DNA of 64,000 nucleotides from Rikenella microfusus. Lineage in GTDB: Bacteria > Bacteroidota > Bacteroidia > Bacteroidales > VadinHA17. This document shows positions 2,193-63,953 of this stretch, piece by piece (position 1 is the first letter of the stretch; each line of letters begins with the position of its first letter). The notes beneath the pieces were generated by a model. It ran no database searches and was not told where the DNA came from. It saw nothing but the letters and a program-made list of their open reading frames with translations. The stretch covers positions 130,795 through 194,794 of the forward strand of contig DYKN01000001.1 of NCBI GenBank assembly GCA_020722575.1, given 5' to 3'. The position numbers and the translations under genes were made by a program.

Positions 2193-2278
2193 ATTTTATT
2201 AAAGTGATAATAAATCACCGAATTTTAATCAGATTTTTATTAGTTTGCTGCCTTATTATTTATTAAAGACAGAATATT

Positions 2279-5334: not shown

Positions 5335-5403
5335 TTTTACCTCCAAAACTGTTTTTATTATCTTTGATCAATTGTTAATCACTATTTTATCTGATTATTA
5401 AAT

Positions 5404-5676: not shown

Positions 5677-5677
5677 T

Positions 5678-6415: not shown

Positions 6416-6519
6416 TAGTGAGTTATTATTTTTTCTAAAATTAAAAACATTTTTGTTTCCTGAGAATAACTTTAATTATCTTTGAAACAGATAATAATCA
6501 GTAATTATTTATTGAGAAA

Positions 6520-7662: not shown

Positions 7663-7757
7663 TGCAGGTGGTTTTTTGTTCGCCGACAATATATTTTGCT
7701 TTAGCTATAGTCTCTGTTCCAGATTTTTTTAATGTTATATGAAAAAATGAAATTTTT

Positions 7758-8783: not shown

Positions 8784-9104
8784 TTATATTTTTTATCTAA
8801 ACTAAATTGTTTATACGAAATAAAAATTGCCCTTTTAAGAAAGTTATAAACAAACAATTGTAAGTTTATTAACAGTTTTTGCATTAGATCCGGAGCTAAT
8901 TTGAATAATATATAGAATATTAATAAGTTAACAATTAATAAATCATTAGTATTCTGCAAATTAAGTAAAGTATATTTGAGTACAATCAGGGACAGACAAT
9001 ACCATGCAGTAATTAAATAATTAAATTCAACAGCAAAAGAATCTTTTGTAAAATGTTATTTTTTATTTTTGATTAAATGAATAGATAATATCAAAAACAA
9101 GGGA

Positions 9105-9320
9105 ATGAAAATGTACAGATTATTTTTTATGTTAATCCTCATTATGATGATTTTTGGAGGATGTACCTCAAAACCTTAAATTTTCAGGGTTGAATTCAGC
9201 AGTAATAATTTCGAAAAGAAATGGGCATTAAATGAGCTTAATTCTGCCAGACCATCTAACTTGACGTCGTCGGGTTGCATCTCTTTTGATCTGAGTTTTT
9301 TTTTCAACTCAGTAGATTAA
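9105..9320 (+). pseudogene. Remnant of a lipoprotein gene interrupted by an in-frame TAA
   Basis: MKMYRLFFMLILIMMIFGGCTSKP is followed by TAA at 9177-9179. The same frame then continues as IFRVEFSSNNFEKKWALNELNS... to 9320. It ends in the hairpin ctgagtt-T7-aactcag. Confidence 0.35.
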
Positions 9321-9437
9321 CCAGCCTGCTACCGGATGATTCCGGAGGCTTTATGCCATACATTCAGAAAAAGAACAACCCGCATCACGCCAGGCAAAAA
9401 GACAATAAAAAGCAGGGCACTTATAAAAATATAATAA

Positions 9438-10862: not shown

Positions 10863-11069
10863 GGTTTTTAAATAATGTCTGGAGTTAAAGTTAGTAATAA
10901 AATAATCATGGAGAAAAGAATAATAATATCATCCCTTTAACAGAAATTACTTGAATTTGGTCAAATGGATATTTAAAAACTGAGGGAATAGATATAAGAT
11001 GGATTGAGTATTAGATTAAGAAAAAAGACAGATTGAGATGATCGCTCTCGCTCTCACTCTCACTCTGTC

Positions 11070-11087
11070 TTTGTTGCTCCGTCAGGG
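11070..11087 (-). repeat. 18-nt duplicate of the 3' end of tRNA-Gln (tttgttgctccgtcaggg)
   Basis: Identical 18-mer at 11070-11087 and 11159-11176. The second copy contains the last 14 nt of the tRNA. Confidence 0.8.
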
Positions 11088-11135
11088 TCTCTGACTATCC
11101 CGAAAACGGGCTGTCAGGACTCCTTTCTCCGCAAC

Positions 11136-11157
11136 AAAAAAACCGCTCACGCGGTTA
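11136..11157 (-). terminator. Intrinsic terminator downstream of tRNA-Gln
   Basis: On the minus strand the sequence reads AACCGC-gtga-GCGGTT followed by T7. On the plus strand it is flanked by an A-run, so it could act in both directions. Confidence 0.7.
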
Positions 11158-11162
11158 TTTTG

Positions 11163-11235
11163 TTGCTCCGTCAGGGCTCGAACCTGAACTTTTCTGATCC
11201 AGAGTCAGACGTGTTGCCAATTACACCACGGAGCA
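11163..11235 (-). tRNA. tRNA-Gln: tRNA-Gln (anticodon CTG)
   Basis: A manual cloverleaf works. Acceptor is TGCTCCG/CGGAGCA, D stem GTGT/ACAC, anticodon stem TCTGA/TCAGA with loop CTCTGGA, and T arm TCAGG-TTCGAGC-CCTGA. Length is 73 nt and CCA is not encoded. Confidence 0.85.
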
Positions 11236-11249
11236 ATATTTTGAGAGTG

Positions 11250-11282
11250 CAAATATAAGCAATTTTGTTCGATGATTACAAA
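11250..11282 (-). promoter_or_regulatory. Candidate Bacteroidota sigma-A promoter for tRNA-Gln
   Basis: The minus strand shows TTTG (11282-11279), a 21-nt spacer, then TATATTTG (11257-11250). This sits 15 nt upstream of the tRNA 5' end. Confidence 0.5.
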
Positions 11283-11412
11283 ATCATAAACGGAAGTGAA
11301 TGGGATTTTAAAAAAGCGAATAAATGAATAATTAACATTTATTTCACAGGCTAAGGGGATGTCCTGCAGGTTATATTTTTGAATCTTGTTTAAGAAAAGG
11401 CTTTTAACCTTG

Positions 11413-52726: not shown

Positions 52727-55700
52727 ATGGAAAAAATATTCTTGAAGCTTAAAACTCCTCTGGTTGTTATCCTGCTTCTGATACTGGCAGGCGGAGCATT
52801 TTCCTACAAAAATCTTAAAACTTCATTATTCCCCAATATTACTTTTCCAAAAATCAAGATAATCGCCGATAACGGTGAACAGCCGGTGGATAAGATGATG
52901 ATAGAGGTTACCAAGCCAATTGAAGATGCAATAAAAAGAGTTGAACACCTGAGTCTTATCAGAAGTGCAACCACTATGGGTAGTTGTGAGATATCGGCAT
53001 ATATGGAATGGGGTTCCGACATCGATCTCGACAAACAGCAGGTGGAATCACAAATAGCCAGAATAAAAAGCAATCTTCCTCCTGATATTGAAATTACTGT
53101 TGAAAAGATGAATCCGTCAATTTTACCGGTGATGGGGTATTCCGTGGCTTCAGATACTAAAAGTCAGATTGAACTGAAACTTATCGCCGAATATATCATA
53201 AAACCATATCTGTCAAGGATACAGGGTGTCGCTGCAGTACAGGTTATCGGTGGAAAAGTAAAGGAGTACAGGATCATTCCCGATGAGGCGAAATTAAAAA
53301 TGTTGAAGATCAATCCTCAGGAAATTATTGATATCCTGCAATATACCGGCTTTATAAGGTCAACAGGCTATACGACTGATTATAACAGGCTTTATCTTAC
53401 TGTCACTGATGCTACAGTCCGGAACAAGCAGCAGCTCGAAGATCTGGTCCTGGTAAATAACGGAGTCCGTAAAATAAAAGTCTCCGATGTGGCAAAAGTC
53501 GAAATCTCCGAACGAAATGAATATATCAGGATCAAAGCCGATGGTAAAGATGTACCACTTATAGCCGTTCTGAAGCAGCCTGAAAGCAATCTGATCGACG
53601 TCGCTGACAAGGTTGCAGCAAGTGTAAAAGAGCTTGAAAAGGTCCTTCCTGCAGGAGTAACCCTGAAACCATATTACAATCAGTCTGAGTTTGTGCACGA
53701 CAGTATCAGAAGCATAATTGATGTTCTATGGATAGGATTGCTTCTATCAATAGTAGTGGCGGTGATATTCCTTCGTTCATTCAAAGCCAGCGGGGTCATC
53801 CTGATAACAATTCCACTCACTCTTGCTCTTACTTTTATCGCGCTTAGCATGCTTGGTTATGATTTTAATATAATGACCATCGGCGCCATTGCCGCCGCTA
53901 TCGGCCTTATAATCGATGACGCGATCATAGTTGTTGAACAGATACACAGAACTCACGAAGAGTTTCCAGATAGGCTACCCCGGGAACTTGTCGGTAAAGC
54001 CATTAACTTCCTGTTCCCCGCTATGGTAAGCTCTTCACTGACCACAATTGTCATCCTCATACCCTTCGAACTGATGACCGGCATCGCAGGTGCTTATTTT
54101 AAAATCCTTACAATGACAATGATAATAACCCTAATTTGCTCTTTTCTTGTTACCTGGATTGGTCTGCCGGTGGTTTATCTGTTGTTTTCCAGGAATAAAC
54201 CCCTGATGAAAAATGTTGAAATACACAAGATCAAAACCCATAAATGGATTGAATTCTTCATATTAAGACCTTATATAAGCATAATATTAATTGTGCTGCT
54301 TATTCTTGGCATTGTCTTCGTAATTCCTAAACTTCCCACCGGGTTCCTGCCTGATATGGATGAAGGATCAATAGTTCTGGATTATACTTCGCCTCCCGGT
54401 ACATCACTTGAAGAAACAGACAGGCTCCTTTCTGAAGTTGATAAGATAATTGAGACAATACCCGAGGTCAAGACATACTCACGGCGTACCGGAACAGAAA
54501 TGGGTTTTTTCATTACTGAACCATACAGTGGCGATTATCTTATTGAGCTGAATAAAAACAGGAAGAAAAAAACCGAAGAGGTTGCAGATGATATCCGTAA
54601 AAAGGTCGAAGCTGCTGTCCCAGCACTTACTGTTGATTTCGGTCAGGTAATCACCGACATGCTTGGGGATCTTATGAAAAGTGTCCAACCAATCGAAATC
54701 AAGATCTTTGGTGACGATCATAAAAAGCTCGAAGAGCTGTCAAGACAGGTTGCCGACAGTGTCAGAAAGGTATCAGGAACAGCAGACGTATTTGATGGTA
54801 TAATAGTCTCAGGCCCTGTAATAAGCATTATCCCCAAAGAAAATGTCCTGAAACAGTTCGGATTAACATCGTCTGATTTACAGGCCCAGGTAGAAGCCTG
54901 GCTGGAAGGCATTGTAGTGGGATCAATACCTGAAAAGGAACAATATACGGATATAAGGTTTATTTATCCGCTCAACAATATGACTCCCTTTGAAAAAATA
55001 AAAAATATCATGATAAGCACACCTACAGGAGAGAACTTTCCGCTTAATAAATTTGCAAATTTTTCAATACAAAGTGGAGTCTCCGAAATACAAAGGGAGA
55101 ACCTTCAGACAATGGGAGCCGTAACGGCAAGACTTGATAACAGAGATCTGGGAAGTGTAATAAAAGACATTCAGAAAAAACTATCAGGTATAAAGCTGCC
55201 TTACTCATACCAGATTGTATATGGTGGTTCCTATGCCGAACAGCAACAATCATTTTCTGAATTATTGAAAATACTCATTATCAGCGGATTGCTGGTTTTT
55301 CTGATTGTTCTTTTTATGTTCAGGGATTTAAAGCTTTCCGGAATTGTCATTTTAATCAGCTCGCTTGGAATAGCAGGTGGTCTTATTGCATTGTACCTTA
55401 CAAACACTCCACTTAATGTCGGAAGCTATACTGGATTAATAATGATAGTAGGAATAATCGGAGAAAATTCAATTTTCACTATCCAGCAGTTTCTCACTGA
55501 ATTAAAAAACTCTGACGTTAACGGCGCATTAAATTATGCAATATCAGCCCGTTTGCGGCCTAAGCTTATGACTGCTACCGGGGCAATAGCTGCACTTACA
55601 CCACTTTCACTTGGTTTGGGCACAGGTGCTCAAATGCATCAGCCGCTGGCAATAGCCGTAATAGGCGGATTAGTAATGGCACTTCCTTTATTACTGATAG

Positions 55701-55738
55701 TACTGCCCGGACTTTTGAAACTTATTGTCAGAAAATAA
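52727..55738 (+). CDS. Efflux RND transporter permease subunit (AcrB/CusA/CzcA superfamily)
   Basis: 1003 aa with 12 TM segments and two large periplasmic loops. The motif AIGLIIDDAIIVVEQI is present. Confidence 0.95.
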   Translation: MEKIFLKLKTPLVVILLLILAGGAFSYKNLKTSLFPNITFPKIKIIADNGEQPVDKMMIEVTKPIEDAIKRVEHLSLIRSATTMGSCEISAYMEWGSDIDLDKQQVESQIARIKSNLPPDIEITVEKMNPSILPVMGYSVASDTKSQIELKLIAEYIIKPYLSRIQGVAAVQVIGGKVKEYRIIPDEAKLKMLKINPQEIIDILQYTGFIRSTGYTTDYNRLYLTVTDATVRNKQQLEDLVLVNNGVRKIKVSDVAKVEISERNEYIRIKADGKDVPLIAVLKQPESNLIDVADKVAASVKELEKVLPAGVTLKPYYNQSEFVHDSIRSIIDVLWIGLLLSIVVAVIFLRSFKASGVILITIPLTLALTFIALSMLGYDFNIMTIGAIAAAIGLIIDDAIIVVEQIHRTHEEFPDRLPRELVGKAINFLFPAMVSSSLTTIVILIPFELMTGIAGAYFKILTMTMIITLICSFLVTWIGLPVVYLLFSRNKPLMKNVEIHKIKTHKWIEFFILRPYISIILIVLLILGIVFVIPKLPTGFLPDMDEGSIVLDYTSPPGTSLEETDRLLSEVDKIIETIPEVKTYSRRTGTEMGFFITEPYSGDYLIELNKNRKKKTEEVADDIRKKVEAAVPALTVDFGQVITDMLGDLMKSVQPIEIKIFGDDHKKLEELSRQVADSVRKVSGTADVFDGIIVSGPVISIIPKENVLKQFGLTSSDLQAQVEAWLEGIVVGSIPEKEQYTDIRFIYPLNNMTPFEKIKNIMISTPTGENFPLNKFANFSIQSGVSEIQRENLQTMGAVTARLDNRDLGSVIKDIQKKLSGIKLPYSYQIVYGGSYAEQQQSFSELLKILIISGLLVFLIVLFMFRDLKLSGIVILISSLGIAGGLIALYLTNTPLNVGSYTGLIMIVGIIGENSIFTIQQFLTELKNSDVNGALNYAISARLRPKLMTATGAIAALTPLSLGLGTGAQMHQPLAIAVIGGLVMALPLLLIVLPGLLKLIVRK

Positions 55739-55758
55739 ATTGAAAGTACCTGTTAAAA

Positions 55759-56943
55759 GTGCAGAAAAGGATTCTTAACATATTTCTTTTACTGTACGGA
55801 GGATTGTTGTTCGGACAGGTGGATTCAACTGGTTTCCGGGAAGGTAAAGTGTGGAAACATACTTCTCTACAGGCAGTTTATCAAAAAGGGTACGTTTTTG
55901 CCACTAACGATTTCATAAAAGGAATCAATGTCGAATCTGACAGAATTAATAGTTTTCAAACATTTTCTCTAAAACTTTCCACCCAGACTGATGGCGAAAA
56001 ACTGTGGGAACAGCTGTATAAATACCCGGAATGGGGCATTAGTATTTATATGGCCGACTTCTTTAATCCGGAAGAAATAGGCAGACCTCTTGCATTATAC
56101 GGAATTTTCAACGCACCTTTCATCAGACGGCAAAAGCTATTGCTCAATTACGAGCTTGGCTTCGGCGCAACTTTTAACTGGAAATCTTTCAATCCTGTTA
56201 CCAATCAGTATAATATCGCAATAGGAGCCGGTGAGTCTTTTATTATAGATGCCGGATTGAACCTTCATTACAGTCTGACAAATAAAATGGATATTATTGC
56301 AGGTTTCAGCCTGACACATTTTTCAAACGGAGCTCTGAAGAAGCCTAATTTCGGGATAAACACTATTGCACCGAAAATTGGCTTGAAGTATAATTTTTAT
56401 AAACCCATAAAATTTCTCAAAAGTGAGGTGCCGGAATTTGATGCGCATAATGAATGGTTCATTTCTGGTTTTGGTGGAGTTAAAAATCTGATATTCGATT
56501 CTGTCAATATCGATATTATTGAAAAATATGAAGGAGTGTTTTTCCCGGTCTTCGGAGTATCATCCGGCTATAACAGGCAGGTCAGTTACAAGTCAAAAAT
56601 AGGTATTGGCGTGACCCTGTCTTATGACGGGTCAATGAACGCACAGGCCGCAGTCGAAAATAATGAACTCGATCCTGTTGATACTCCATTTTCTGACCAT
56701 ATTCAGCTGAGCATCTACCCATCATATGAGTTGACAATAAACAGACTGTCGTTGGTACTGCAGCCTGCCTTTTACCTGTACAGAAAAAAATTCAGGAATC
56801 AGTCACCGGCATTTCATCAAAGAATAGGCCTGAAGTACCAGATTACTGATAAGATATTCGCCGGGATAATCCTCCGTGATTACGCGTTTCATGTTTCTGA
56901 TCATTTAGAATGGACACTTGGATACAGAATCCCGGGAAAATAA
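55759..56943 (+). CDS. Acyloxyacyl hydrolase / PagL-like outer-membrane beta-barrel
   Basis: GTG start and signal peptide. The pattern YPEWGISIYMADFFNPE..GRPLALYG and FSLTHFSNGALKKPNFGIN resembles Bacteroidota lipid A deacylase-like proteins. The call is tentative. Confidence 0.5.
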   Translation: MQKRILNIFLLLYGGLLFGQVDSTGFREGKVWKHTSLQAVYQKGYVFATNDFIKGINVESDRINSFQTFSLKLSTQTDGEKLWEQLYKYPEWGISIYMADFFNPEEIGRPLALYGIFNAPFIRRQKLLLNYELGFGATFNWKSFNPVTNQYNIAIGAGESFIIDAGLNLHYSLTNKMDIIAGFSLTHFSNGALKKPNFGINTIAPKIGLKYNFYKPIKFLKSEVPEFDAHNEWFISGFGGVKNLIFDSVNIDIIEKYEGVFFPVFGVSSGYNRQVSYKSKIGIGVTLSYDGSMNAQAAVENNELDPVDTPFSDHIQLSIYPSYELTINRLSLVLQPAFYLYRKKFRNQSPAFHQRIGLKYQITDKIFAGIILRDYAFHVSDHLEWTLGYRIPGK

Positions 56944-57087
56944 CCCGACTTGATAATTCCTTAAGAATTGTAATATAGTTTTACATGGTTTATTTAAATC
57001 AACCAGTGTCGTCTTGATCTGTCCTCCGGCAGTAACTTTTTCGCAATCCAACCCAACCTTTTTTGATAATTCAAATCTTTAGAAGTA

Positions 57088-58221
57088 ATGGCACAACTAA
57101 TGAATATTAACAAAGGAAACAAAATGAACACTTTAATTGTAAATAAAAAGTTGAATGATAAAATCGTAATTCATAAAGTAGAGGCGCCTGCTTCTACAAC
57201 AGTTCTGAAATCAACATGGTCGATACGAAAAGTCAAATTGGAAAACTATCGCTTTGTTAAAGCTCCAGAAAATTACATTCCTAAAGTCGGCGATGTGGCA
57301 GGAGTAAAAGTATTAAAAGTTGCCAATCATTCCCGCATTTATTCATCAGAAAATAAATATGTCCAGCTTTACAAAGATGATGTTATTTTCGGAGTGCTTG
57401 GTTACCGTTATGCTTCTGATGCATTTCATGCCGACACCATTGACATTAATAACCTCCACCTTTTAACAAATGCAGGGTTGATCGGTACCGTCAGGGACAA
57501 ACATTCAAGTATCTCAGAACCAACAAGATTGAAACTTATTGGGGTTTTTGTCAATAACAATAGTTCTGAAATTCTGAATTTAAAAACGGAGTTTTTTAAG
57601 CGCAAGAGAATTAATTCAGCTTACCCTCCCGTGATACTTATTATTGGCACAGGTATGAATAGCGGAAAAACAACCACTGCTGCCCGTTTAGGGCGATCAT
57701 TGATAGAAAAAGGTATTAAAACAGCAATATTGAAAGTAACAGGCAGTGTATCCCAGCGTGATCTTTTTGAATTTGAATCAACGGGAGTTAATTATACGGC
57801 TGACTTCAGTGATTACGGTTTCCCGTCGACTTACATGTGCAATCAGGATGAACTGACTGGACTTTTTTCCATTATGCTTGAAGACACAATTCCAACTCAG
57901 CCGGATGTTGTAATTGTTGAAATTGCTGATGGCATTTTACAGAGAGAGACTCAAATGCTGCTAAAAACTGATATTGTAAGGAATTCCTGTATCGGAGTAG
58001 TTCTTACAGCTCCATGTTCCTGTTCAGCGCTTACTCTGGCAGAGAAGGTTAAACAATTAAATTACTCCCCTATTGCAGTTACAGGGACTATTACCAATTC
58101 GCCATTATTCATGCAGGAATTTACGCAATACGATACAACTCCGGTACTGGATACACAAACCAGCCGGGATCAATTTGTTGAGCTGATAAAAGCAAAGATA
58201 AACACAACAGTTAAGCTATAG
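57088..58221 (+). CDS. Uncharacterised P-loop NTPase with beta-rich N-domain (DUF1611 / dethiobiotin-synthetase-like layout)
   Basis: Walker A reads IIGTGMNSGKTTTAARL. The Walker-B-like block is PDVVIVEIADGILQRE. The N-terminal domain of about 170 aa has no recognisable motif. An alternative start lies at 57124. Confidence 0.5.
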   Translation: MAQLMNINKGNKMNTLIVNKKLNDKIVIHKVEAPASTTVLKSTWSIRKVKLENYRFVKAPENYIPKVGDVAGVKVLKVANHSRIYSSENKYVQLYKDDVIFGVLGYRYASDAFHADTIDINNLHLLTNAGLIGTVRDKHSSISEPTRLKLIGVFVNNNSSEILNLKTEFFKRKRINSAYPPVILIIGTGMNSGKTTTAARLGRSLIEKGIKTAILKVTGSVSQRDLFEFESTGVNYTADFSDYGFPSTYMCNQDELTGLFSIMLEDTIPTQPDVVIVEIADGILQRETQMLLKTDIVRNSCIGVVLTAPCSCSALTLAEKVKQLNYSPIAVTGTITNSPLFMQEFTQYDTTPVLDTQTSRDQFVELIKAKINTTVKL

Positions 58222-58228
58222 GCCGGGT

Positions 58229-60031
58229 ATGCAGGAACAAAAAGAAAATAAATTATCATGGCTGGCTGTTTTAAAACCATATTTAAAGCCATTTTATGGA
58301 ACAATAGCGCTGGCTGTAATTTTTATGATTATCGATTCATTCCTTACAGCATTACGACCATGGCCACTGAAAATAATTATAGATAAAGTTCTGAATGGTC
58401 AGAATATTAAAATACCACTCATTGCCGGCTGGATAAACAGCGGTAATTTTGATAATACAGCAATTTTATATGCGGCATGTCTGGCATTATTGCTTATAGC
58501 AATTGGAACAGGAACATTCTCATACTTCTTTACCCGTTTAATTGGAAATTTCTCACAGCATCTCGTTCTAAATATTAAGACAGATACATTCAGTCATCTG
58601 CAAAGGCTTTCATTACAGTTTCACACAAAAAAGAGGCTTGGTGACATTATAACCCGCCTGACCTCTGACATTAACTCAATCCAGTTATTGACGGCTCAGG
58701 GAGCCATGTTATTTCTTACTAATTTCTTTTTAATCTTTATGCGCCTTGTGATTATGTTCTGGCTGAACTGGCAGTATTCACTTATCGCGTGTTCTGTATT
58801 ACCCTTTTTATTTCTGGCAGTTGGATGGCATACTGTAAAAATAAAAACCGCTTCAAAAAATGCCCGTGCCAGCGATGGCGAAATGGCTTCCATAGCACAG
58901 GAGACACTGGGGTCAATTAGAATGGTGAAAGGATTGACACAAGAAAAGAGGCAAGACCAGATCTTTTTAGAACAAGGCCGGAAGAGTCTGGGCGAATATA
59001 TGGAGCGTGTAAACTATCAGGCCCGGATGGCGCCCATTGTTGATATTCTGGCTGCGTTGGGTCTTGTTCTGGTGATGTTTTATGGCGCTAAAGGGGTGAT
59101 AGCCGGGCGTGTTACCATAGGCGACATGATAGTATTCTTTTTTTACGTTTCGAATTTTTATAGCCCTTTGCGGGCAATATCAAGGCAATTTGGAAATTTC
59201 TCTAATGGAATAGTAGGCGCTGAACGGGTGGCGGAAATATTAGCAAAAGATACTTTCATTGAACAAAATAAAAAAGGAGAAAGAGCGCCGCGATTTAAAG
59301 GACAGATAGAATATAAAAATGTTTCATTTGAATATGAACACGGACAATCTGTTTTAAAAGGAATTTCACTGATAGTCCGACCGGGAGATCATGTTGCTAT
59401 TATTGGCGCTACAGGTGCGGGAAAAAGTACTCTGGTCAGTCTGTTATTACGATTTTATGATCCTACAGAGGGATCAATATTAATTGACGGGAAAGATATC
59501 AGGCAATATTCACCTGAATCAATTCGCCAGCAAATCGGTCTTATCTTACAGGAGACTTATCTGTTATCCGGCACCATCAGCGAAAATATCATTTTCGGAT
59601 GTAAAACGACACCCAGCAAAGAAGAAATTATAAATGCTGCGAAAGCGGCTCATGCTCACGATTTTATAATTGAGTTAACTGAGGGCTATGACAGCCACAT
59701 CTCAGAGCAGGGAGCAAATCTTTCAGGAGGACAACGCCAAAGAATTGCCATTGCACGCGCTATTGTCCGTAAAGATCCAATCCTTTTGCTTGATGAACCC
59801 ACAAGTAATCTGGACAACGTGTCCGAAGCATTAATAATGAAAACTATTAAAAACATTCCTCACCAGCCGACAATTATCATGGTCACACATTCTTTACGCG
59901 CTGCACAAATGGCAGATATCATTGCCGTACTTGAGAATGGTGAGATAATTGAGTATGGCAAACCCTCCGAACTGATTTATGCCGGTAAGTTTTTTAAAAA
60001 ATATGTTCAGGCAGAGCATCTGGAAAAGTAA
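58229..60031 (+). CDS. ABC exporter, fused permease/ATPase (MsbA/MdlB type)
   Basis: Has six N-terminal TM helices, Walker A GATGAGKST, the signature LSGGQRQRIAIARA and Walker B ILLLDEPTS. Confidence 0.95.
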   Translation: MQEQKENKLSWLAVLKPYLKPFYGTIALAVIFMIIDSFLTALRPWPLKIIIDKVLNGQNIKIPLIAGWINSGNFDNTAILYAACLALLLIAIGTGTFSYFFTRLIGNFSQHLVLNIKTDTFSHLQRLSLQFHTKKRLGDIITRLTSDINSIQLLTAQGAMLFLTNFFLIFMRLVIMFWLNWQYSLIACSVLPFLFLAVGWHTVKIKTASKNARASDGEMASIAQETLGSIRMVKGLTQEKRQDQIFLEQGRKSLGEYMERVNYQARMAPIVDILAALGLVLVMFYGAKGVIAGRVTIGDMIVFFFYVSNFYSPLRAISRQFGNFSNGIVGAERVAEILAKDTFIEQNKKGERAPRFKGQIEYKNVSFEYEHGQSVLKGISLIVRPGDHVAIIGATGAGKSTLVSLLLRFYDPTEGSILIDGKDIRQYSPESIRQQIGLILQETYLLSGTISENIIFGCKTTPSKEEIINAAKAAHAHDFIIELTEGYDSHISEQGANLSGGQRQRIAIARAIVRKDPILLLDEPTSNLDNVSEALIMKTIKNIPHQPTIIMVTHSLRAAQMADIIAVLENGEIIEYGKPSELIYAGKFFKKYVQAEHLEK

Positions 60032-60090
60032 AGTATAACACCAAAAAAGATATAAAAAAACGGGAATGATTTATTATAAAGATTATTAAC

Positions 60091-60867
60091 ATGAGAAAAA
60101 AACAAAATATGGGTATTTGGATTAGCAAACCGGTTAATGCTCACGCAAGAAGACAAATAGCAATCATTATATTGATTATTTGCTTTTTATTTATACTGCT
60201 CTTTTATCCGGTTTCTGCTCAGGACAACATCAACAACAGCATACCGGTTCCAAAAGGAAAGACATTGGTTTTACAACCCGGGATAGGGCTGAGATACAGC
60301 GTAAATGATAAGATTAAACTGTACCAGGATTTTCGTACTTATTTTTACCAGAACATCCTTTCAAAAAATTTTGAAGAATTAAGTTTTAGCGCCAGTTATA
60401 AACTGGGCAGGTTTAATAACTTTTATTTCACCACAAATTTAGGTTACCTGCTTACACTCGACAATAATTATAAAATCCACGCCTATCGGCCAAAGGTTTA
60501 TTTTACGACGAGTTATCATTTAAATAAAATAAGACTCGAATTCAGAAACAGGCTTGAATATATTATTACAACGGGTGAAAATGGGGGCGGTTCGTTTCGG
60601 TACAGGCCAAGGTTTTTGGTTCAGACAACATTCAAACTCAACCAACTCCGGATTTCACCCTATGTTTATAATGAGTTTTTTCTGGGGCAAAATGGTTTTA
60701 GTCAAAACAGGACAAAACTGGCATTATTTGTCAGATACCATGATTTTGTACTTAATCCGGGTTATACCTTAAAAATAAAGCCGGGTACGAAATTGGTTGA
60801 AAACCGTGTATCGCTGAATTTAAGTTATACCATACCGACATTTACAAAGAAGAAACAAACCAGGTAA
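60091..60867 (+). CDS. DUF2490-like predicted outer-membrane beta-barrel
   Basis: Has a signal/anchor segment followed by alternating-polarity strands with repeated R.R.EY/F.YRPRF motifs. The family call is tentative. Confidence 0.45.
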   Translation: MRKKQNMGIWISKPVNAHARRQIAIIILIICFLFILLFYPVSAQDNINNSIPVPKGKTLVLQPGIGLRYSVNDKIKLYQDFRTYFYQNILSKNFEELSFSASYKLGRFNNFYFTTNLGYLLTLDNNYKIHAYRPKVYFTTSYHLNKIRLEFRNRLEYIITTGENGGGSFRYRPRFLVQTTFKLNQLRISPYVYNEFFLGQNGFSQNRTKLALFVRYHDFVLNPGYTLKIKPGTKLVENRVSLNLSYTIPTFTKKKQTR

Positions 60868-60934
60868 TTTCCATGCTAATTCGTTCAAAGTTGGAATTCC
60901 GGGAAATCTTAACAATTGAATGCTTTTGTCTTAA

Positions 60935-63355
60935 ATGAAACCCATTGCTTCAAATTTGCATAAGCACCATCCTTTGGGCCAGGTTTATTTATGGATACCT
61001 GACGAGTCGGTTCCAGGAGGGGGCTCTATTAAAAAAGAAATTGTCCCTCTGGAATGGTTACTCCCCTCGTGTGGGGGAAAATTGAAATTGGAGAGCCCTT
61101 ATGCCGTAATTATTAACGCCGGTTTAATTAACCTGCCCGATGAGCATTTATCCTCATTTAAAACTGTTCCGTTAGGGAATGCAGTTCCCGATTCAGCAGG
61201 TAATTTTATTTTCGAACCATTTAACGGGGGAGGCAGAATGGATAAAGTTCCATTTGTTGATGACATGAGAAGGTTCAAAAATTTACAGGCCTCCAGATTT
61301 GGAGAGGTCAACACGTTTTTCCATATAAATAAAATAGCATTTTACATTAATAATCTTTTGAAAATCCTGGGAGAACGCTCTCTGCCTCGGGTGAAGGTGG
61401 TTATAAATGCCCATTCTGCTATTTATAATAAAGAGGGTGACAGAGATGGAGTAAAAGGGAAAATCAGTGGGAAATGGCTGCCTTTTCAGGGAGCCCATTA
61501 TCGCTTATCGGGTTATGGTTTAAAAGATATACCGGAATTGTCTCCTGTTTCATCTGCAGGGGAAATTCATCTGGGACCGGGATGGAAACTGACCGATGCC
61601 GGATTATTACCGGAAAGCGCCGGTTTCAGATACAGGTGCAATGCCTCGCACAATGCAGGAATTATTTATCATGAATATGGCCATCATATTAACAGGCATA
61701 CTGCCGACTTTATGGCCAACCGGTTGCTTGCCCCTCACCGACAAATTAACCGGAAATCAGATGCCGATGAAGGCATAAGTGATTACTGGGCAGCAACCAT
61801 GCTCAATAGCCCCCACATTTGGGCATGGCATCGAAAACATACCAAGAATGATTTTCATCATCGAAGCCTTGCCTCATTAAAGACCATGGCCGACTTTAAT
61901 AAAGAGGAAAATGCGGATCCACATCTAAACGGGACAATACTGGGAGCTACCTTGTGGGATATCCGAAAGGAGCTGTCGAAGCATGATGCTAAAGGGATCG
62001 AAAAAACGGATCTACTGGTACTGAAATCGCTGCTGTTAATTGGCCAGCTTCAGGATTCTGATTATCGTCCTTCCAGGTTAGGTACCTGCAAATGCAGGTC
62101 GGGGTTCAGTATTGTGCTTAAAGCTATGCTTGAGGCTGACCGGATTCTTTATCATGGCGATCATAAAGAAATCATTCATTATTGTTTTTCAAAAAGAGAA
62201 ATAAATCCCGAAATATCTCCCCCTTTTCCATCCTCTACGGGTTTCTGTGCAATATCAGAACATCCGTTTTTTCCTCCTAAACAGCGTATCCAAAAATCTA
62301 TTCAACATATTGTTAGAAAAGATACAAATTCTATCATCCCCGAAACGGATGAATTAATGAACCGGGAAGAATTGGAAGTCCGCCTAACTACTAATCAGAC
62401 AGGTCCTTTTTCACTAACTGCCGTGGGTGATATTATGCTTGGAGAAAGAATGAATCGCACCATCCGGAAATTTGGTCCCGAGTATCCATTCTACTGTGTT
62501 TATCCTATTTTCAGGAGATCAAATATAGTTTTAGGGAATCTCGAAGGCCCGTTTTCAAAAAACGCAGAAAAACAAAAAAGAAATTTTACCTATAAAATTG
62601 ATCCAAAAAATGCCAGAATTCTCCGACGTGCAGGTTTTAATATAGTGACACTTGCAAACAACCATTTACTTGATTGCGGTAGAGAGGGAGTGCTTGAAAC
62701 TTTGTCAGCTTTAAAAAAACATAACATACAATACATTGGAGCCGGGAAAAACGAAGAAGAAGCACATTCTCCTGCAATAATGCAGGCAGGAAAATATAAA
62801 ATTGGGCTTCTGGGGTATTACTGGAACCGACGTACAGCAGCAAGGGGTAATAAACCCGGAAGCGCCATGGATTCTGAGGAATATCTGGCCAACGACATCC
62901 GCTTATTACGCTCTCTGGTTGACAGGGTGGTTGTTACTGTACACTGGGGGGTTCCTTATGATCGATATCCATCAGAAGAGGACCAGAAGAAAGCTCATTT
63001 TGCCATCGATTGCGGTGCAGATATAATTATTGGCCACCACCCGCATATTGTTCAGCCTTTTGAAGTGTATAAAAACCGCCCTGTTTTTTACAGCATTGGT
63101 AATTTTGCTTTTGGCTCAGGCAACAGCAAGGCTGAAGGTGTTTTGCTTGGTATTGATTTTCAGGATGATTTTACCAGCATCACTATTTTCCCCGCTTATG
63201 TTAAAAACAGGGATAAACGAATAAATTATCAACCAAAAATATTAAGCGGCAATTCAGCACTGAGAAGTATAAAACACTTAAAAGAAATATCAGGCGCATC
63301 GGGGAATCTGATTAGTTTAAAAGATGATACAGGCAAGATAGTTATATCCCGTTAA
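60935..63355 (+). CDS. Fusion protein: gluzincin (M4/M36-like HExxH...E) domain plus CapA/PGA_cap metallophosphatase-fold domain
   Basis: In the N-half, IIYHEYGHHINRH is followed by DEGISDYWAATM. In the C-half, VGDIMLGERM, LGNLEGP, VTLANNHLLDCG, VVVTVHWG, GADIIIGHHPH and YSIGNFAFG are the CapA hallmarks. There is no signal peptide. Confidence 0.75.
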   Translation: MKPIASNLHKHHPLGQVYLWIPDESVPGGGSIKKEIVPLEWLLPSCGGKLKLESPYAVIINAGLINLPDEHLSSFKTVPLGNAVPDSAGNFIFEPFNGGGRMDKVPFVDDMRRFKNLQASRFGEVNTFFHINKIAFYINNLLKILGERSLPRVKVVINAHSAIYNKEGDRDGVKGKISGKWLPFQGAHYRLSGYGLKDIPELSPVSSAGEIHLGPGWKLTDAGLLPESAGFRYRCNASHNAGIIYHEYGHHINRHTADFMANRLLAPHRQINRKSDADEGISDYWAATMLNSPHIWAWHRKHTKNDFHHRSLASLKTMADFNKEENADPHLNGTILGATLWDIRKELSKHDAKGIEKTDLLVLKSLLLIGQLQDSDYRPSRLGTCKCRSGFSIVLKAMLEADRILYHGDHKEIIHYCFSKREINPEISPPFPSSTGFCAISEHPFFPPKQRIQKSIQHIVRKDTNSIIPETDELMNREELEVRLTTNQTGPFSLTAVGDIMLGERMNRTIRKFGPEYPFYCVYPIFRRSNIVLGNLEGPFSKNAEKQKRNFTYKIDPKNARILRRAGFNIVTLANNHLLDCGREGVLETLSALKKHNIQYIGAGKNEEEAHSPAIMQAGKYKIGLLGYYWNRRTAARGNKPGSAMDSEEYLANDIRLLRSLVDRVVVTVHWGVPYDRYPSEEDQKKAHFAIDCGADIIIGHHPHIVQPFEVYKNRPVFYSIGNFAFGSGNSKAEGVLLGIDFQDDFTSITIFPAYVKNRDKRINYQPKILSGNSALRSIKHLKEISGASGNLISLKDDTGKIVISR

Positions 63356-63488
63356 GAACTCACTATTTCAAATTACAGACCTATCAACGTACAGCCTCCA
63401 TTTGAGTTAACCTTACTTTAAAATTCCTTTAGATTCATAATTTACATTTGCTTAGTTTAATTAAATCAACAATTTAAAACTAAGTAAA

Positions 63489-63953
63489 ATGAAAAAATCA
63501 ATTTTAATTATGGCTGCTGCCTTATTAATCAGTCTTAACTTCTACGGCCAGGAAGTAAAAGATCTCCCTGCCAGTGTTAATACGGCATTCATACAAAAAT
63601 TCCCAAATGCCACAGGTGTAAAATGGGGTAAAGAAAATGCAAAAGAGTGGGAAGCTGAATTCAAAATGGGCGATAAAGATTATTCAGCAAATTTTGACAA
63701 TGCAGGCGGCTGGATGGAAACTGAATATAAAATCAGCGCTAAAGAAATTCCTGCCTCAGTCACTGCTTCCATCAGGAAAGAATTCGCAGGTTACAAAACT
63801 GACGAATCAGAAGTATCTGAGACTGAAAAGGGAAAAGTTTATGAATTTGTTCTCAGTAAGGGCAATGAAAAATTAGAAGTCGCGTTCAGCAATGATGGCA
63901 AGCTTTTAAGGAAAGAGTCGGTTAAGGAAGAAAACGAGGAAGAAGAAAAGTAA
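63489..63953 (+). CDS. PepSY-like (DUF2874-type) secreted protein
   Basis: Has a signal peptide and two repeats of the pattern LPASV...F..KFP.A...KW.KE / IPASVTASIRKEFAGYK. The tail is acidic. Confidence 0.65.
   Translation: MKKSILIMAAALLISLNFYGQEVKDLPASVNTAFIQKFPNATGVKWGKENAKEWEAEFKMGDKDYSANFDNAGGWMETEYKISAKEIPASVTASIRKEFAGYKTDESEVSETEKGKVYEFVLSKGNEKLEVAFSNDGKLLRKESVKEENEEEEK

What the first reader, a model, noticed from the sequence alone, without database searches (positions are those of the whole stretch)
57088..63355. Uncharacterised four-gene cluster: P-loop protein, ABC exporter, DUF2490-like barrel, gluzincin::CapA fusion
Four co-directional genes have short gaps of 7, 59 and 67 nt. 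They encode (1) a cytoplasmic Walker A/B protein with an unassignable N-domain, (2) an MsbA-type exporter, (3) a predicted outer-membrane barrel, and (4) an 806-aa protein fusing an HExxH...E metallopeptidase-like domain to a CapA (poly-gamma-glutamate-type) domain.

CapA normally works with the CapB ligase and CapC, and both are absent here. The layout has a cytoplasmic NTPase, an inner-membrane exporter, an outer-membrane barrel and a polymer-handling/peptidase enzyme. It looks like a synthesis-export route for an unknown peptide-like or anionic surface polymer, or a remodelling system. That functional reading is inference.
Basis: partly seen in the sequence, partly recalled or inferred. Interest (0 to 1): 0.7.

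Follow-up and report, generated by a model that had tools for sequence, protein, structure and literature searches.

The report
Conserved P-loop, ABC exporter, metallopeptidase cassette
The four genes are real and belong to an undescribed gene cassette found in at least 13 bacterial phyla and in ammonia-oxidising archaea; it pairs a new kind of P-loop enzyme with an ABC exporter and a cytoplasmic zinc peptidase, and it probably processes and exports a peptide-like compound that nobody has identified.

Summary
There are four co-directional ORFs (377, 600, 258 and 806 aa) with gaps of 7, 59 and 67 nt, and the domain calls hold.

The genes are not a chance neighbourhood.
- In 67 reference-genome loci from 13 phyla, the P-loop gene lies directly upstream of the peptidase/CapA gene(s) in 58.
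- An orthologous ABC exporter is adjacent in about 46-50.
- The M36-like and CapA parts are one gene in 35 loci and two adjacent genes in 24.

Searching from the P-loop side shows that the real core is P-loop enzyme plus ABC exporter. The third partner can be swapped.
- It is an M36-like::CapA enzyme here.
- It is an M14 carboxypeptidase in 20 metagenome loci and in Nitrososphaerota.
- In 18 protein clusters the M14 domain is fused to the C-terminus of the ABC protein.

At least four unrelated outer-membrane barrel families have been recruited in different lineages.

The P-loop protein is not a DUF1611/DgcN orthologue. The CapA domain has no membrane anchor and keeps the residues that could be aligned to MslH's epimerase dyads. 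No CapB/CapC or RiPP precursor accompanies it.

Best reading (about 0.4): cytoplasmic processing of a peptide-like product, coupled to export. Uptake and catabolism is a serious rival. No description was found in the literature searched.

The parts
57088..58221 (+). Gene 1: 377-aa cytoplasmic P-loop (SIMIBI-class) protein of an undescribed family. The first ~35 aa are unconserved, so the true start may be M5 or M13.
   Evidence: ORF. There are 353 homologues with E<=1e-3. In 1.84 billion representatives, 464 score E<=1e-30. AF2 pLDDT is 90.8. There is no transmembrane segment.
57205..57567 (+). N-terminal all-beta domain of gene 1 (aa ~40-160), carrying the invariant R107-Y108-A109 of the GxRYAxDAF motif. 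It matches no known family.
   Evidence: Secondary structure. Invariant residues. No Pfam hit at E<=10 for 8 diverse members. Foldseek matched only the C-terminal domain.
57622..58218 (+). P-loop alpha/beta domain of gene 1. It carries Walker A GTGMNSGKTT (aa 187-196, nt 57646-57675), K216-x-TGS, the invariant DFSDYGFPSTY (aa 239-249, nt 57802-57834) and the Walker-B-like VEIADG (aa 277-282, nt 57916-57933).
   Evidence: Motif positions; invariance. Foldseek hits are FtsY/Ffh, dethiobiotin synthetase 3of5, HypB and CTP synthase at E 2e-7 to 2e-5.
58229..60031 (+). Gene 2: 600-aa half-size ABCB-type (type IV fold) exporter, with six transmembrane helices and one nucleotide-binding domain.
   Evidence: PF00664 135.8 bits and PF00005 121.4 bits. 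Hydrophobic segments. The nearest bacterial half-size transporters with solved structures are Sav1866, TM287/288, MsbA and TmrAB. Orthologues score 560-690 bits next to M36/CapA genes in other phyla.
60091..60867 (+). Gene 3: 258-aa DUF2490 protein with an N-terminal signal sequence; a putative outer-membrane beta-barrel or porin.
   Evidence: PF10677 46.9 bits. Hydrophobic N-terminus at aa 17-47. DUF2490 is listed as putative porin family TC 1.B.81 (PMC4827864). It occupies the same position in L005-L008 and L076.
60935..62224 (+). Gene 4, N-terminal domain (aa 1-430): thermolysin/fungalysin-like gluzincin. It carries HEYGHH (aa 246-251, nt 61670-61687) and DEGISDYW (aa 278-285, nt 61766-61789). 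It has no signal peptide and no propeptide.
   Evidence: Pfam M36 24.6 bits. AF2 pLDDT 85.8. Foldseek hits M36 4k90 at E 1.4e-9, plus aureolysin, vibriolysin and thermolysin. Invariant H246, E247, H250, E279, D283 and H330. Maximum hydropathy 1.01.
62225..62413 (+). Poorly conserved linker (aa ~431-493) between the two enzymatic domains. This is where the gene is split in 24 other loci.
   Evidence: Lower pLDDT and lower conservation. Fused versus split counts.
62414..63355 (+). Gene 4, C-terminal CapA/PGA_cap (calcineurin-like) domain. It carries AVGD (D499), GNLE (E537), ANNHLLD (aa 574-580, nt 62654-62674), VHWG (H670) and GHHPH (aa 700-704, nt 63032-63046).
   Evidence: PF09587 248.5 bits. 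The only PDB relative by sequence is MslH 8gq9. MslH N87/H88/D91, H259 and H295 align to N576/H577/D580, H670 and H704, while H261 aligns to G672 (residue roles from PMC10406935).
57019..57042 (+). Terminator-like hairpin plus T-run between the upstream PagL-like gene and gene 1. It is the likely 5' boundary of the transcription unit.
   Evidence: stem 57019-57032, tail TAACTTTTTC; sequence. This is a consensus match only.

Best explanation
The cluster is the Bacteroidota version of a modular cassette that appears to have spread by horizontal transfer.

Invariant core:
- A cytoplasmic P-loop enzyme of a new family: a SIMIBI-class NTPase domain plus a novel beta domain.
- Immediately downstream, an ABCB-type exporter.

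Variable additions:
- A cytoplasmic metallopeptidase. Here it is a thermolysin/fungalysin-like Zn domain fused to a CapA/MslH-type metal-dependent domain. Elsewhere it is an M14 carboxypeptidase, sometimes fused to the cytoplasmic end of the ABC protein.
- In several diderm lineages, an outer-membrane barrel. Here it is DUF2490.

Proposed mechanism:
1. The P-loop enzyme uses ATP to activate or build a small, probably anionic, amino-acid-derived or peptide-like compound.
2. The 806-aa enzyme trims it (Zn peptidase domain) and epimerises a residue, probably at or near a free C-terminus as MslH does (CapA domain).
3. The ABC protein exports the product across the inner membrane.
4. DUF2490 lets it cross the outer membrane.

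What is shown: gene content, synteny, fusion and fission events, folds, intact catalytic motifs and the predicted cell compartments.

What is inferred: the direction of transport, the chemistry of the P-loop enzyme, the epimerase activity and the nature of the cargo.
For: Synteny:
- A P-loop gene is present in 64 of 67 genome loci, and directly upstream on the same strand in 58.
- An ABC gene is adjacent in 50. The loci come from 13 phyla.
- In Bradyrhizobium the start and stop codons overlap.

Fusion and fission events:
- M36-like and CapA are fused in 35 loci and split in 24.
- An ABC::M14 fusion occurs in L100 and in 18 protein clusters.

Core and swappable partner:
- P-loop followed by ABC occurs in most of the 80 P-loop-centred metagenome loci.
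- M14/AstE-like enzymes follow in 20 of those loci, and in the Nitrososphaerota locus L156. In L155 the M14 domain is fused to the ABC protein.
- The archaeal P-loop proteins score 239-263 bits against the window protein.
- P-loop clades do not track the partner type.

Outer-membrane barrels from unrelated families:
- DUF2490, and a remote DUF2490 relative upstream of the P-loop gene in 10 loci (hhalign probability 96.7 %).
- OprB inside the Chlorogloeopsis cluster.
- Porin_O_P.
- A Gemmatimonadota barrel unrelated to DUF2490.

Compartments: the P-loop protein and the 806-aa protein have no signal peptide or transmembrane segment, whereas DUF2490 has a signal peptide.

Catalytic competence:
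- HExxH plus E279/D283/H330 are invariant, and the fold matches M36/M4.
- The aligned members of MslH's catalytic dyads (H88, D91, H295) are conserved.

Peptide or polyamide context in variant clusters: CphA-like ATP-grasp (464 bits), a MurF-like ligase, PrtD/HlyD type I secretion genes and Asparaginase_2.

Exporter identity: type IV ABCB fold and no substrate-binding protein gene.
Against: - No enzyme of a known peptide-bond-forming class (ATP-grasp, Mur ligase, NRPS) is in the core or in this window's cluster.
- The activity of the P-loop protein is unknown, and its sub-class within SIMIBI is unresolved. Sequence matches cover only the Walker A region.
- All the variable partners are hydrolase-type enzymes, and porins are typical of uptake systems. 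That pattern fits catabolism equally well.
- Transport direction cannot be read from sequence.
- One MslH metal ligand (H261) is Gly here, so the epimerase chemistry may differ.
- No conserved precursor ORF was found and no cargo is known.
- Co-transcription is not demonstrated.
Confidence: 0.4

Rival explanations
1. This is an uptake and catabolism system for unusual peptides: ones containing D-amino acids, iso-peptide or beta-aspartyl bonds, or poly-amino-acid fragments such as peptidoglycan stem peptides, poly-gamma-glutamate or cyanophycin pieces. The porin admits the substrate. The ABC protein works as an importer that uses the exporter fold. In the cytoplasm the epimerase domain converts D to L, the Zn peptidase cleaves, and the P-loop enzyme phosphorylates or acylates the product. 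The logic is analogous to MpaA plus YcjG, or to DgcN plus DgcA.
For: - Every variable partner is a hydrolase: M36-like, M14/AstE-like, Asparaginase_2, S8 and alpha/beta-hydrolase.
- Porin families best known for solute uptake (from my own knowledge), OprB and Porin_O_P, sit in the clusters.
- No known synthetase is in the core.
- A Zn peptidase paired with a peptide epimerase is the logic of E. coli murein-peptide catabolism (from my own knowledge).
- The P-loop domain has weak similarity to DUF1611_C.
Against: - The ABC protein is a typical type IV exporter, and no binding-protein gene is present.
- Divergent versions carry biosynthetic ligases and type I secretion components.
- An M14 domain fused to the nucleotide-binding-domain end of the ABC protein resembles peptidase-containing exporters.
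- The module is present in Nitrososphaerota, which as far as I know are chemolithoautotrophs.
Confidence: 0.27
2. This is a RiPP-type pathway. A ribosomal precursor peptide encoded elsewhere is epimerised at its C-terminus (CapA/MslH-like domain), cleaved by the Zn peptidase acting as a leader peptidase, and exported by the ABC transporter.
For: - The CapA domain's only solved relative is the RiPP epimerase MslH.
- Protease plus ABC exporter is a common RiPP theme.
- M14 and MslH both act at peptide C-termini (PMC10406935).
Against: - No conserved small ORF lies within 1.5 kb of the clusters in the genome loci analysed.
- No other RiPP enzyme is present (cyclase, RRE protein, YcaO or radical SAM).
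- The NCBIfam MslH equivalog scores 70 bits against a cut-off of 700.
- Roughly 50 % identity across phyla, and presence in archaea, is unusual for RiPP tailoring enzymes.
Confidence: 0.1
3. The P-loop protein is not a biosynthetic enzyme. It is an NTP-dependent accessory factor, either a metallochaperone or assembly factor for the metalloenzyme partner, or a regulator of the ABC transporter.
For: - Foldseek hits include the metallochaperone GTPase HypB.
- All the main partners are metalloenzymes (M36-like, M14, CapA).
- Some family members are fused to a REC receiver domain.
- cobW lies upstream in Bradyrhizobium.
Against: - There is no CxCC or His-rich metal motif and no NKxD guanine motif. 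The invariant residues are acidic, aromatic or hydroxyl, as in DFSDYGFPSTY and RYAxDAF, which look like a substrate pocket.
- P-loop plus ABC plus barrel occurs without any metalloenzyme in about 10 loci.
- cobW and FUR neighbours are confined to single lineages.
Confidence: 0.08
4. This is canonical poly-gamma-glutamate capsule synthesis, with CapB and CapC encoded elsewhere in the genome.
For: A strong PGA_cap match.
Against: - The CapA domain has no membrane anchor and is fused to a cytoplasmic peptidase.
- No recurrent CapB- or CapC-like neighbour was found in about 150 related loci (neighbour clustering with Pfam scans of representatives only). The one Mur-family ligase seen is MurF-like, in Microvirga.
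Confidence: 0.03

Closest known systems
Poly-gamma-glutamate synthase PgsBCA/CapBCA (Bacillus)
   Same: Shares the PGA_cap/CapA domain (248 bits). CapA has been proposed to be the epimerase that introduces D-Glu into the growing chain (PMC8179263). Both are associated with a secreted anionic polyamide.
   Different: No PgsB (Mur-type ligase) or PgsC is present. The CapA domain here has no membrane anchor, is cytoplasmic and is fused to a Zn peptidase. Export is by an ABC transporter.
MslH, lasso-peptide C-terminal Trp epimerase (PDB 8GQ9)
   Same: It is the only solved structure related by sequence. The catalytic N87/H88/D91, H259 and H295 align to conserved residues. Both are soluble cytoplasmic enzymes.
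   Different: The score is 70 bits against an equivalog cut-off of 700. H261 is replaced by Gly. There is no precursor peptide, RRE partner or lasso cyclase nearby.
Peptidase-containing ABC transporters (PCATs) for bacteriocin and RiPP export
   Same: A peptidase is functionally coupled to an ABCB-type exporter, and in the ABC::M14 relatives it is physically fused.
   Different: PCATs carry an N-terminal C39 cysteine peptidase. Here the peptidase is a Zn enzyme (M36-like or M14), either C-terminal or separate, and a P-loop enzyme is always present.
Thermolysin (M4) and fungalysin (M36) metallopeptidases
   Same: Same fold (Foldseek E 1.4e-9). HExxH and the downstream ExxxD are present, as is an HxN(G/S)x(I) segment that resembles thermolysin's His231 region (that last comparison is from memory).
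   Different: M4 and M36 enzymes are secreted zymogens with a signal peptide and a propeptide. This domain has neither, is cytoplasmic and is fused to CapA.
Cyanophycin metabolism (CphA, and the NCBIfam 'cyanophycin metabolism-associated ABC transporter')
   Same: Divergent alphaproteobacterial versions place a CphA-like ATP-grasp protein directly upstream of the fusion gene (464 bits). Asparaginase_2 (isoaspartyl peptidase type) occurs in 4-5 loci. The window ABC protein's second-best NCBIfam match is CphA_assoc_ABC (393 bits).
   Different: No CphA is in this window's cluster or in the main clade. All scores are far below the equivalog cut-offs (877-880).
DUF1611/DgcN with its racemase partner, and MpaA-YcjG murein-peptide catabolism
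   Same: Both pair a P-loop protein or a Zn peptidase with an enzyme that inverts a C-alpha centre (from my own knowledge).
   Different: The P-loop protein here matches only 38 residues of DUF1611_C, below the cut-off. Its N-domain is all-beta rather than the Rossmann-type DUF1611_N. The epimerase candidate has a calcineurin-like fold, not an enolase-superfamily fold.

Membership tests
Poly-gamma-glutamate synthase complex (CapBCA/PgsBCA) | CapA/PGA_cap domain | tested here: met
   PF09587 248.5 bits, aa 494-727.
Poly-gamma-glutamate synthase complex (CapBCA/PgsBCA) | CapA/PgsA is membrane-anchored by an N-terminal transmembrane helix | tested here: not met
   No hydrophobic segment anywhere in the 806-aa protein (maximum 19-residue hydropathy 1.01). 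The domain is C-terminal to a soluble peptidase domain.
Poly-gamma-glutamate synthase complex (CapBCA/PgsBCA) | Adjacent CapB/PgsB (Mur-type amide ligase) and CapC/PgsC | tested here: not met
   Neither is among the four genes, and no recurrent CapB- or CapC-like neighbour was found in 67 genome plus 83 metagenome or contig loci. Neighbours were clustered and only representatives were scanned against Pfam. The only Mur-family ligase seen is MurF-like, in Microvirga. The rest of the source genome could not be searched.
MslH-type peptide epimerase | Catalytic dyads His88/Asp91 and His295/Asp11 | tested here: met
   H577/D580 and H704 align directly. D499 is assigned by position and motif (AVGD) only. 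All four are nearly invariant in 38 homologues. Residue roles are from PMC10406935.
MslH-type peptide epimerase | Metal ligands Glu44, Asn87, His259 and His261 | tested here: inconclusive
   N576 and H670 align. E537 is assigned by position only. His261 aligns to Gly672.
MslH-type peptide epimerase | Equivalog-level similarity and a RiPP context (precursor peptide, RRE protein, cyclase) | tested here: not met
   NF038314 scores 70.2 bits against a cut-off of 700. No conserved small ORF is present.
M36/M4 thermolysin-clan metallopeptidases | HExxH plus a downstream Glu zinc ligand, and the thermolysin-like fold | tested here: met
   H246, E247, H250 and E279 are invariant. Foldseek hits 4k90 at E 1.4e-9, and also thermolysin and aureolysin. 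Pfam M36 scores 24.6 bits against a cut-off of 23.3.
M36/M4 thermolysin-clan metallopeptidases | Secreted zymogen with a signal peptide and an FTP/PepSY-type propeptide | tested here: not met
   No signal peptide or propeptide domain is present.
DUF1611 / DgcN | Full DUF1611_C P-loop domain at or above Pfam's gathering score | tested here: not met
   24.1 bits against a cut-off of 25, covering only profile positions 11-48 of 201. The pattern is the same in 39 of 44 family members.
DUF1611 / DgcN | Rossmann-like DUF1611_N domain | tested here: not met
   The N-domain is predicted to be all-beta and has no Pfam match at E<=10.
SIMIBI-class P-loop NTPases (dethiobiotin synthetase/CobQ, SRP GTPases, HypB, MinD) | Walker A, Walker B and the SIMIBI alpha/beta fold | tested here: met
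   GTGMNSGKTT and VEIADG are present. Foldseek hits FtsY, BioD 3of5, HypB and CTP synthase at probability 1.00.
Dethiobiotin synthetase/CobQ-type amide-forming enzymes | Family-level sequence match, or a demonstrated carboxylate-activating active site | tested here: inconclusive
   AAA_26 scores 21.7 bits against a cut-off of 27. PDB profile hits to BioD cover only the Walker A to beta-2 stretch (E 0.01). The invariant Lys216 at the end of beta-2 and the Glu-type Walker B resemble BioD, but that comparison is from memory.
ABCB-type (type IV fold) exporters | ABC_membrane transmembrane domain fused to an ABC_tran nucleotide-binding domain | tested here: met
   PF00664 135.8 bits and PF00005 121.4 bits.
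MsbA lipid A flippase | Equivalog score | tested here: not met
   TIGR02203 scores 382 bits against a cut-off of 602.
DUF2490 putative porins (TC 1.B.81) | Pfam gathering score and a signal peptide | tested here: met
   46.9 bits against a cut-off of 29.8. A hydrophobic N-terminal segment is followed by VSA/QD. The pore function of the family is itself unproven (PMC4827864).
Peptidase-containing ABC transporters (PCAT) | N-terminal C39 peptidase domain on the ABC protein | tested here: not met
   No such domain is present. The resemblance is functional only.

The most novel reading that the evidence does not exclude
The P-loop protein is the founding member of a new class of ATP-dependent amide or peptide ligases: a SIMIBI fold plus a novel beta domain, unrelated to ATP-grasp enzymes, Mur ligases and NRPS. 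Together with a C-terminus-directed epimerase and peptidase, and a dedicated ABC exporter, it would make a secreted oligo- or poly-anionic peptide containing D-amino acids. That would be a previously unrecognised extracellular metabolite, shared by at least 13 bacterial phyla and by ammonia-oxidising archaea.
Probability: 0.15. Interest if true: 0.9.

Novelty: new variant of a known kind. Interest (0 to 1): 0.7.

Why it matters
- The cassette is widespread. It occurs in soil, freshwater and marine Acidobacteriota, Planctomycetota, Gemmatimonadota, Bacteroidota, rhizobia and cyanobacteria, and in Nitrososphaerota. It is strongly conserved, at about 40-50 % identity across phyla, yet it has no name, no curated family model and no literature.
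- It would give a working context for three poorly understood protein families: a P-loop family with an unclassified domain, cytoplasmic CapA-family enzymes, and DUF2490 barrels.
- It contains several Rosetta-stone fusions that make concrete experiments possible.
- If it exports a common peptide-like compound, that compound could matter for microbial interactions, for metal or nutrient chemistry, or for cell-surface biology in many environments.
- If it is a catabolic route, it would instead explain how diverse microbes use peptides that contain D-amino acids or iso-peptide bonds.
- Several cultured carriers exist (Bradyrhizobium, Mesorhizobium, Chlorogloeopsis PCC 6912), so the question can be tested directly.

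Tried and rejected
- DUF1611/DgcN orthology of the P-loop protein: rejected. The match is 38 residues and below the cut-off, the N-domain is all-beta, and no DUF1611 structure is among the 50 best Foldseek hits listed.
- RiPP precursor: a search for small ORFs (18-90 aa) within 1.5 kb of the clusters in the genome loci found only lineage-restricted antisense artefacts.
- Metal-homeostasis link, prompted by cobW in Bradyrhizobium, FUR in a planctomycete and a CzcA-type pump upstream in the window: rejected. cobW and FUR homologues occur only in those single lineages, and the pump and PagL-like genes are not conserved next to the cluster.
- Riboswitch or other known RNA in or before the cluster: none. 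A wider multi-locus Rfam call exceeded the size limit.
- Internal promoters: sigma-70-like sites are no more frequent than in shuffles (24 against 24.9). The Bacteroidota -7 motif TAnnTTTG is absent from the internal gaps, but it is also not enriched window-wide (88 against 84.5). This is weak evidence either way.
- Homology between DUF2490 and the Gemmatimonadota barrel: rejected (hhalign probability 0.3 %).
- Sub-classifying the P-loop domain by sequence against the PDB: only the Walker A region aligns.
- Pfam assignment of lipoproteins upstream of the DUF2490-like/P-loop/ABC trios: uninformative.
- Literature searches for DUF1611, PGA_cap+M36, cyanophycin+CapA+ABC, DUF2490, CapA family protein+metallopeptidase, and PGA_cap: none describes this cluster.

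Full report
**1. Observation**

One search confirms four + strand ORFs at 57088-58221 (377 aa), 58229-60031 (600 aa), 60091-60867 (258 aa) and 60935-63355 (806 aa). The gaps are 7, 59 and 67 nt.

- ORF1 has only sub-threshold matches, confined to the P-loop region: DUF1611_C 24.1 bits (cut-off 25), AAA_26 and CbiA.
- ORF2 has ABC_membrane and ABC_tran.
- ORF3 matches DUF2490 (46.9 bits).
- ORF4 matches PGA_cap (248.5 bits, aa 494-727) and Peptidase_M36 (24.6 bits against a cut-off of 23.3, aa 237-423).

Hydropathy shows the following.
- The 806-aa protein has no hydrophobic segment at all.
- The only borderline segment in the P-loop protein (aa 300-318, score 1.65) lies inside its folded alpha/beta domain.
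- DUF2490 has an N-terminal signal-type segment.
- The ABC protein has about six transmembrane segments.

A terminator-like hairpin (57019-57032 plus a T-run) separates the cluster from the upstream PagL-like gene. No consensus promoter or terminator falls in the internal gaps. These scans are not enriched over shuffled sequence, so they carry little weight.

The window matches assembly GCA_975418565.1 and a JGI metagenome contig. The neighbouring RND pump clusters at 90 % or more with a Bacteroidales MAG protein. The organism is therefore probably in the Bacteroidota.

**2. The proteins**

*P-loop protein*
- AlphaFold2 with a 44-sequence alignment gives pLDDT 90.8. The model has a disordered N-terminus (aa 1-30), an all-beta domain (aa ~40-160) and an alpha/beta P-loop domain (aa ~180-377).
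- Foldseek against the PDB matches only the C-terminal domain. The hits are SIMIBI-class proteins: FtsY/Ffh, dethiobiotin synthetase 3of5, HypB and CTP synthase (E 2e-7 to 2e-5).
- Sequence and profile searches of the PDB align only the Walker A region.
- The beta domain has no Pfam match even at E<=10 in eight diverse members.
- Invariant residues include Walker A GTGMNSGKTT, K216-x-TGS, DFSDYGFPSTY, E278-x-ADG-x-x-Q-x-E, and R107-Y108-A109 in the beta domain.
- That pattern looks like a substrate pocket rather than a metal-binding or guanine-specificity motif.
- The family is therefore a new SIMIBI branch and not a DUF1611/DgcN orthologue.
- A profile search of 1.84 billion representatives finds 1,629 members at E<=1e-3 and 464 at E<=1e-30.
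- Some members carry an N-terminal REC receiver domain.

*806-aa protein*
- The N-terminal 430 aa fold like M36 fungalysin and M4 thermolysin-family enzymes (AF2 pLDDT 85.8; Foldseek 4k90 E 1.4e-9, also aureolysin, vibriolysin and thermolysin).
- H246, E247, H250, E279, D283 and H330 are invariant in 38 homologues, so the Zn site looks intact.
- The C-terminal domain's only solved relative by sequence is the lasso-peptide epimerase MslH.
- According to PMC10406935, MslH uses the dyads H88/D91 and H295/D11 and the metal ligands E44, N87, H259 and H261.
- In the alignments, N87/H88/D91 correspond to N576/H577/D580, H259 to H670 and H295 to H704. H261 corresponds to G672.
- D499 and E537 fit D11 and E44 by position only.
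- PMC8179263 proposed that CapA itself is the epimerase of poly-gamma-glutamate synthesis.

*ABC protein*
It is a generic ABCB-type exporter. Among bacterial half-size transporters the nearest solved structures are Sav1866, TM287/288, MsbA and TmrAB. It reaches no NCBIfam equivalog cut-off.

*DUF2490*
It is listed as a putative porin family, TC 1.B.81, with no established function (PMC4827864). A 2026 preprint also describes DUF2490 as an outer-membrane barrel family, mostly with signal peptides.

**3. Synteny from the peptidase/CapA side**

Homologues of both the P-loop protein and the fusion protein are about 40-50 % identical across distant phyla and lie on the same contigs.

A scan of one genome per species returned 67 loci. 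They come from Bacteroidota, Ignavibacteriota, Acidobacteriota, Chloroflexota, Armatimonadota, Desulfobacterota, Planctomycetota, Verrucomicrobiota, Gemmatimonadota, Eisenbacteria, Myxococcota, Alphaproteobacteria and Cyanobacteriota.

Six-frame ORF calling followed by phmmer gave these counts.
- A P-loop homologue is present in 64 of 67 loci, and directly upstream on the same strand in 58. Two of the three misses are contig ends.
- An ABC gene is adjacent in 50. In 46 it scores above 350 bits, and mostly 560-690 bits, against the window ABC protein.
- The M36-like and CapA parts are fused in 35 loci, are two adjacent genes in 24, and are undetermined in 8.

In Bradyrhizobium the three genes overlap start-to-stop. 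DUF2490 occurs only in the four Bacteroidota/Ignavibacteriota loci, in the window's order.

Other diderm lineages carry other barrels.
- An OprB porin lies between the CapA and M36-like genes in Chlorogloeopsis PCC 6912.
- A ~400-aa barrel-like protein, with a signal peptide and an aromatic-rich C-terminal strand, lies upstream of the P-loop gene in Gemmatimonadota. It is unrelated to DUF2490.

A divergent alphaproteobacterial branch adds further genes:
- a CphA-like ATP-grasp protein (464 bits against a cut-off of 877) directly upstream of the fusion gene;
- PrtD/HlyD type I secretion genes;
- an ATPgrasp_ST::acylphosphatase protein;
- in Microvirga, a MurF-like ligase.

**4. Synteny from the P-loop side**

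Contexts of P-loop homologues, and a metagenome scan with the P-loop profile (80 loci), show that the constant neighbour is an ABCB-type exporter immediately downstream. The third gene varies.

| Neighbour | Loci |
|---|---|
| Cytoplasmic M14/AstE-AspA-like Zn carboxypeptidase after the ABC gene | 20 |
| ~275-aa barrel upstream of the P-loop gene, a remote DUF2490 relative (hhalign probability 96.7 %, E 3.8e-10) | 10 |
| Porin_O_P | 4 |
| Asparaginase_2 (isoaspartyl-peptidase type) | 4 (including L100) |

Alpha/beta-hydrolase and S8 subtilase genes also recur.

In L100 one 1,075-aa ORF combines ABC_membrane, ABC_tran and Peptidase_M14. It is followed by a stand-alone CapA gene and an Asparaginase_2 gene. 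Eighteen protein clusters share this ABC::M14 architecture. Their nearest unfused relatives are from Nitrososphaerota.

An archaeal MAG carries P-loop(377)-ABC(601)-M14(456). A 1.1-Mb contig, L155, carries P-loop(376)-ABC::M14(1078) with a CapA gene 5 kb away; its organism was not identified. The L155 and L156 P-loop proteins score 239-263 bits against the window protein and keep every motif.

Clustering P-loop sequences by identity shows that the window's clade is closer to the M14-partnered proteins (36-41 % identity) than to the main M36/CapA-partnered clade. Partners have therefore been exchanged. The ABC proteins of the M14 loci belong to a different subfamily, scoring 215-290 bits.

**5. 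Interpretation**

The evidence establishes a modular cassette made of:
- a P-loop enzyme;
- an ABC exporter;
- a cytoplasmic metallopeptidase, with or without a CapA-type domain;
- optionally, an outer-membrane channel.

Gene fusions tie the peptidase to CapA and the peptidase to the transporter.

The simplest mechanistic reading is processing of a peptide-like compound coupled to its export. It works like peptidase-containing ABC exporters, but with different parts.

MslH acts on a peptide's C-terminal residue (PMC10406935). M14 enzymes are carboxypeptidases, and CphA- and RimK-type ligases extend C-termini (the last two points are from my own knowledge). A substrate with a free and repeatedly modified C-terminus is therefore an attractive idea, for example an oligo-Asp or oligo-Glu-like peptide. 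The anion-selective Porin_O_P and the isoaspartyl peptidase in some versions fit that idea. All of this is inference.

The chemistry of the P-loop enzyme is unknown. Its invariant Lys at the end of beta-2 and its Glu-type Walker B resemble dethiobiotin synthetase and CobQ-type enzymes, which activate carboxylates. I make that comparison from memory and it was not tested.

The main rival is uptake and catabolism of peptides containing D-amino acids or iso-peptide bonds. It is favoured by the fact that every variable partner is a hydrolase and that porins are present. It is disfavoured by:
- the exporter-type ABC fold;
- the lack of a binding-protein gene;
- the biosynthetic ligases and type I secretion genes in variant clusters;
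- the fusion of the peptidase to the nucleotide-binding-domain end of the transporter.

A RiPP pathway lacks any conserved precursor ORF. Canonical poly-gamma-glutamate synthesis fails two defining features, the membrane anchor and the CapB/CapC partners. A chaperone or regulator role for the P-loop protein is not excluded, but it fits the conserved residues poorly.

**6. Novelty**

No Pfam or NCBIfam model covers the P-loop family or the cassette. Seven literature searches found no description.

The parts belong to known superfamilies, and the overall logic (enzyme, peptidase and ABC exporter) is a known kind. I therefore rate it a new variant of a known kind, not a categorically new system.

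Interest is high (0.7) for three reasons: the breadth of distribution across bacteria and archaea, the unclassified enzyme family, and the availability of cultured carriers for direct tests.

Noticed in passing
window 50385-56943: Directly upstream lies an RND efflux operon: an OEP-like gene (50385-51806), a membrane-fusion protein (51817-52725) and a 1003-aa pump (52727-55738). The pump's 90 % cluster mates are named CzcA-family heavy-metal efflux pumps. A 394-aa PagL-like outer-membrane protein follows (55759-56943, PF09411 48 bits). This block is not conserved next to the cluster in other genomes.
   Followed up: partly
window 63443-63953: A secreted PepSY_like protein (63489-63953, PF11396 46.7 bits) is preceded by a perfect Bacteroidota -7 motif, TACATTTG (63443-63450), so it probably has its own promoter. 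PepSY-like ORFs also lie near the cluster in L007, L008 and L076. PepSY domains are known as inhibitors of M4 peptidases, so the co-occurrence could be meaningful or could be chance.
   Followed up: partly
P0241, P0333; P0347, P0371, P0380; L066-L070: Some P-loop family members carry an N-terminal response-regulator receiver domain. Others (Mesorhizobium and Microvirga, 535-613 aa) carry a C-terminal fragment of a Mutator/IS256-type transposase. That fragment recurs in several 50 %-identity clusters, which suggests a domesticated or fossil piece.
   Followed up: partly
L100:1309-4536; P0412-P0429; L155:6001-9237: ABC exporter proteins of ~1000-1114 aa carry an M14 Zn-carboxypeptidase domain fused to the C-terminus of the nucleotide-binding domain. 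As far as I know this architecture is undescribed. It is always next to a P-loop family gene in the loci examined.
   Followed up: yes
L156 (GCA_029785885.1, Nitrososphaerota) 4803-9270: The P-loop/ABC/M14 trio is present in ammonia-oxidising archaea (Nitrososphaerota), so the module crosses the bacteria-archaea boundary.
   Followed up: partly
L072:11986-13655; also L087, L116, L141: An HTTM-domain membrane protein and a DCC1-like thiol-disulfide oxidoreductase follow the P-loop/ABC/M14 genes in four loci.
   Followed up: no
L062:12406-13836 (-), L068:14143-15519: In the divergent alphaproteobacterial clusters, an ATPgrasp_ST ('sugar-transfer associated' ATP-grasp) domain is fused to an acylphosphatase domain, next to the M36::CapA gene. 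This is an unusual pairing of an enzyme that forms acyl-phosphates with one that hydrolyses them.
   Followed up: no
L064 (Chlorogloeopsis fritschii PCC 6912) 1236-11296: The cyanobacterial version is preceded by a histidine kinase and an OmpR-type regulator. It also contains a 190-aa protein with a weak beta-solenoid match, between the ABC and CapA genes.
   Followed up: no
window 57088-57200: The start codon of the P-loop gene is uncertain. The first ~35 residues are unconserved and have pLDDT below 50. Other assemblies-aa (M5) or 365-aa (M13) versions.
   Followed up: partly
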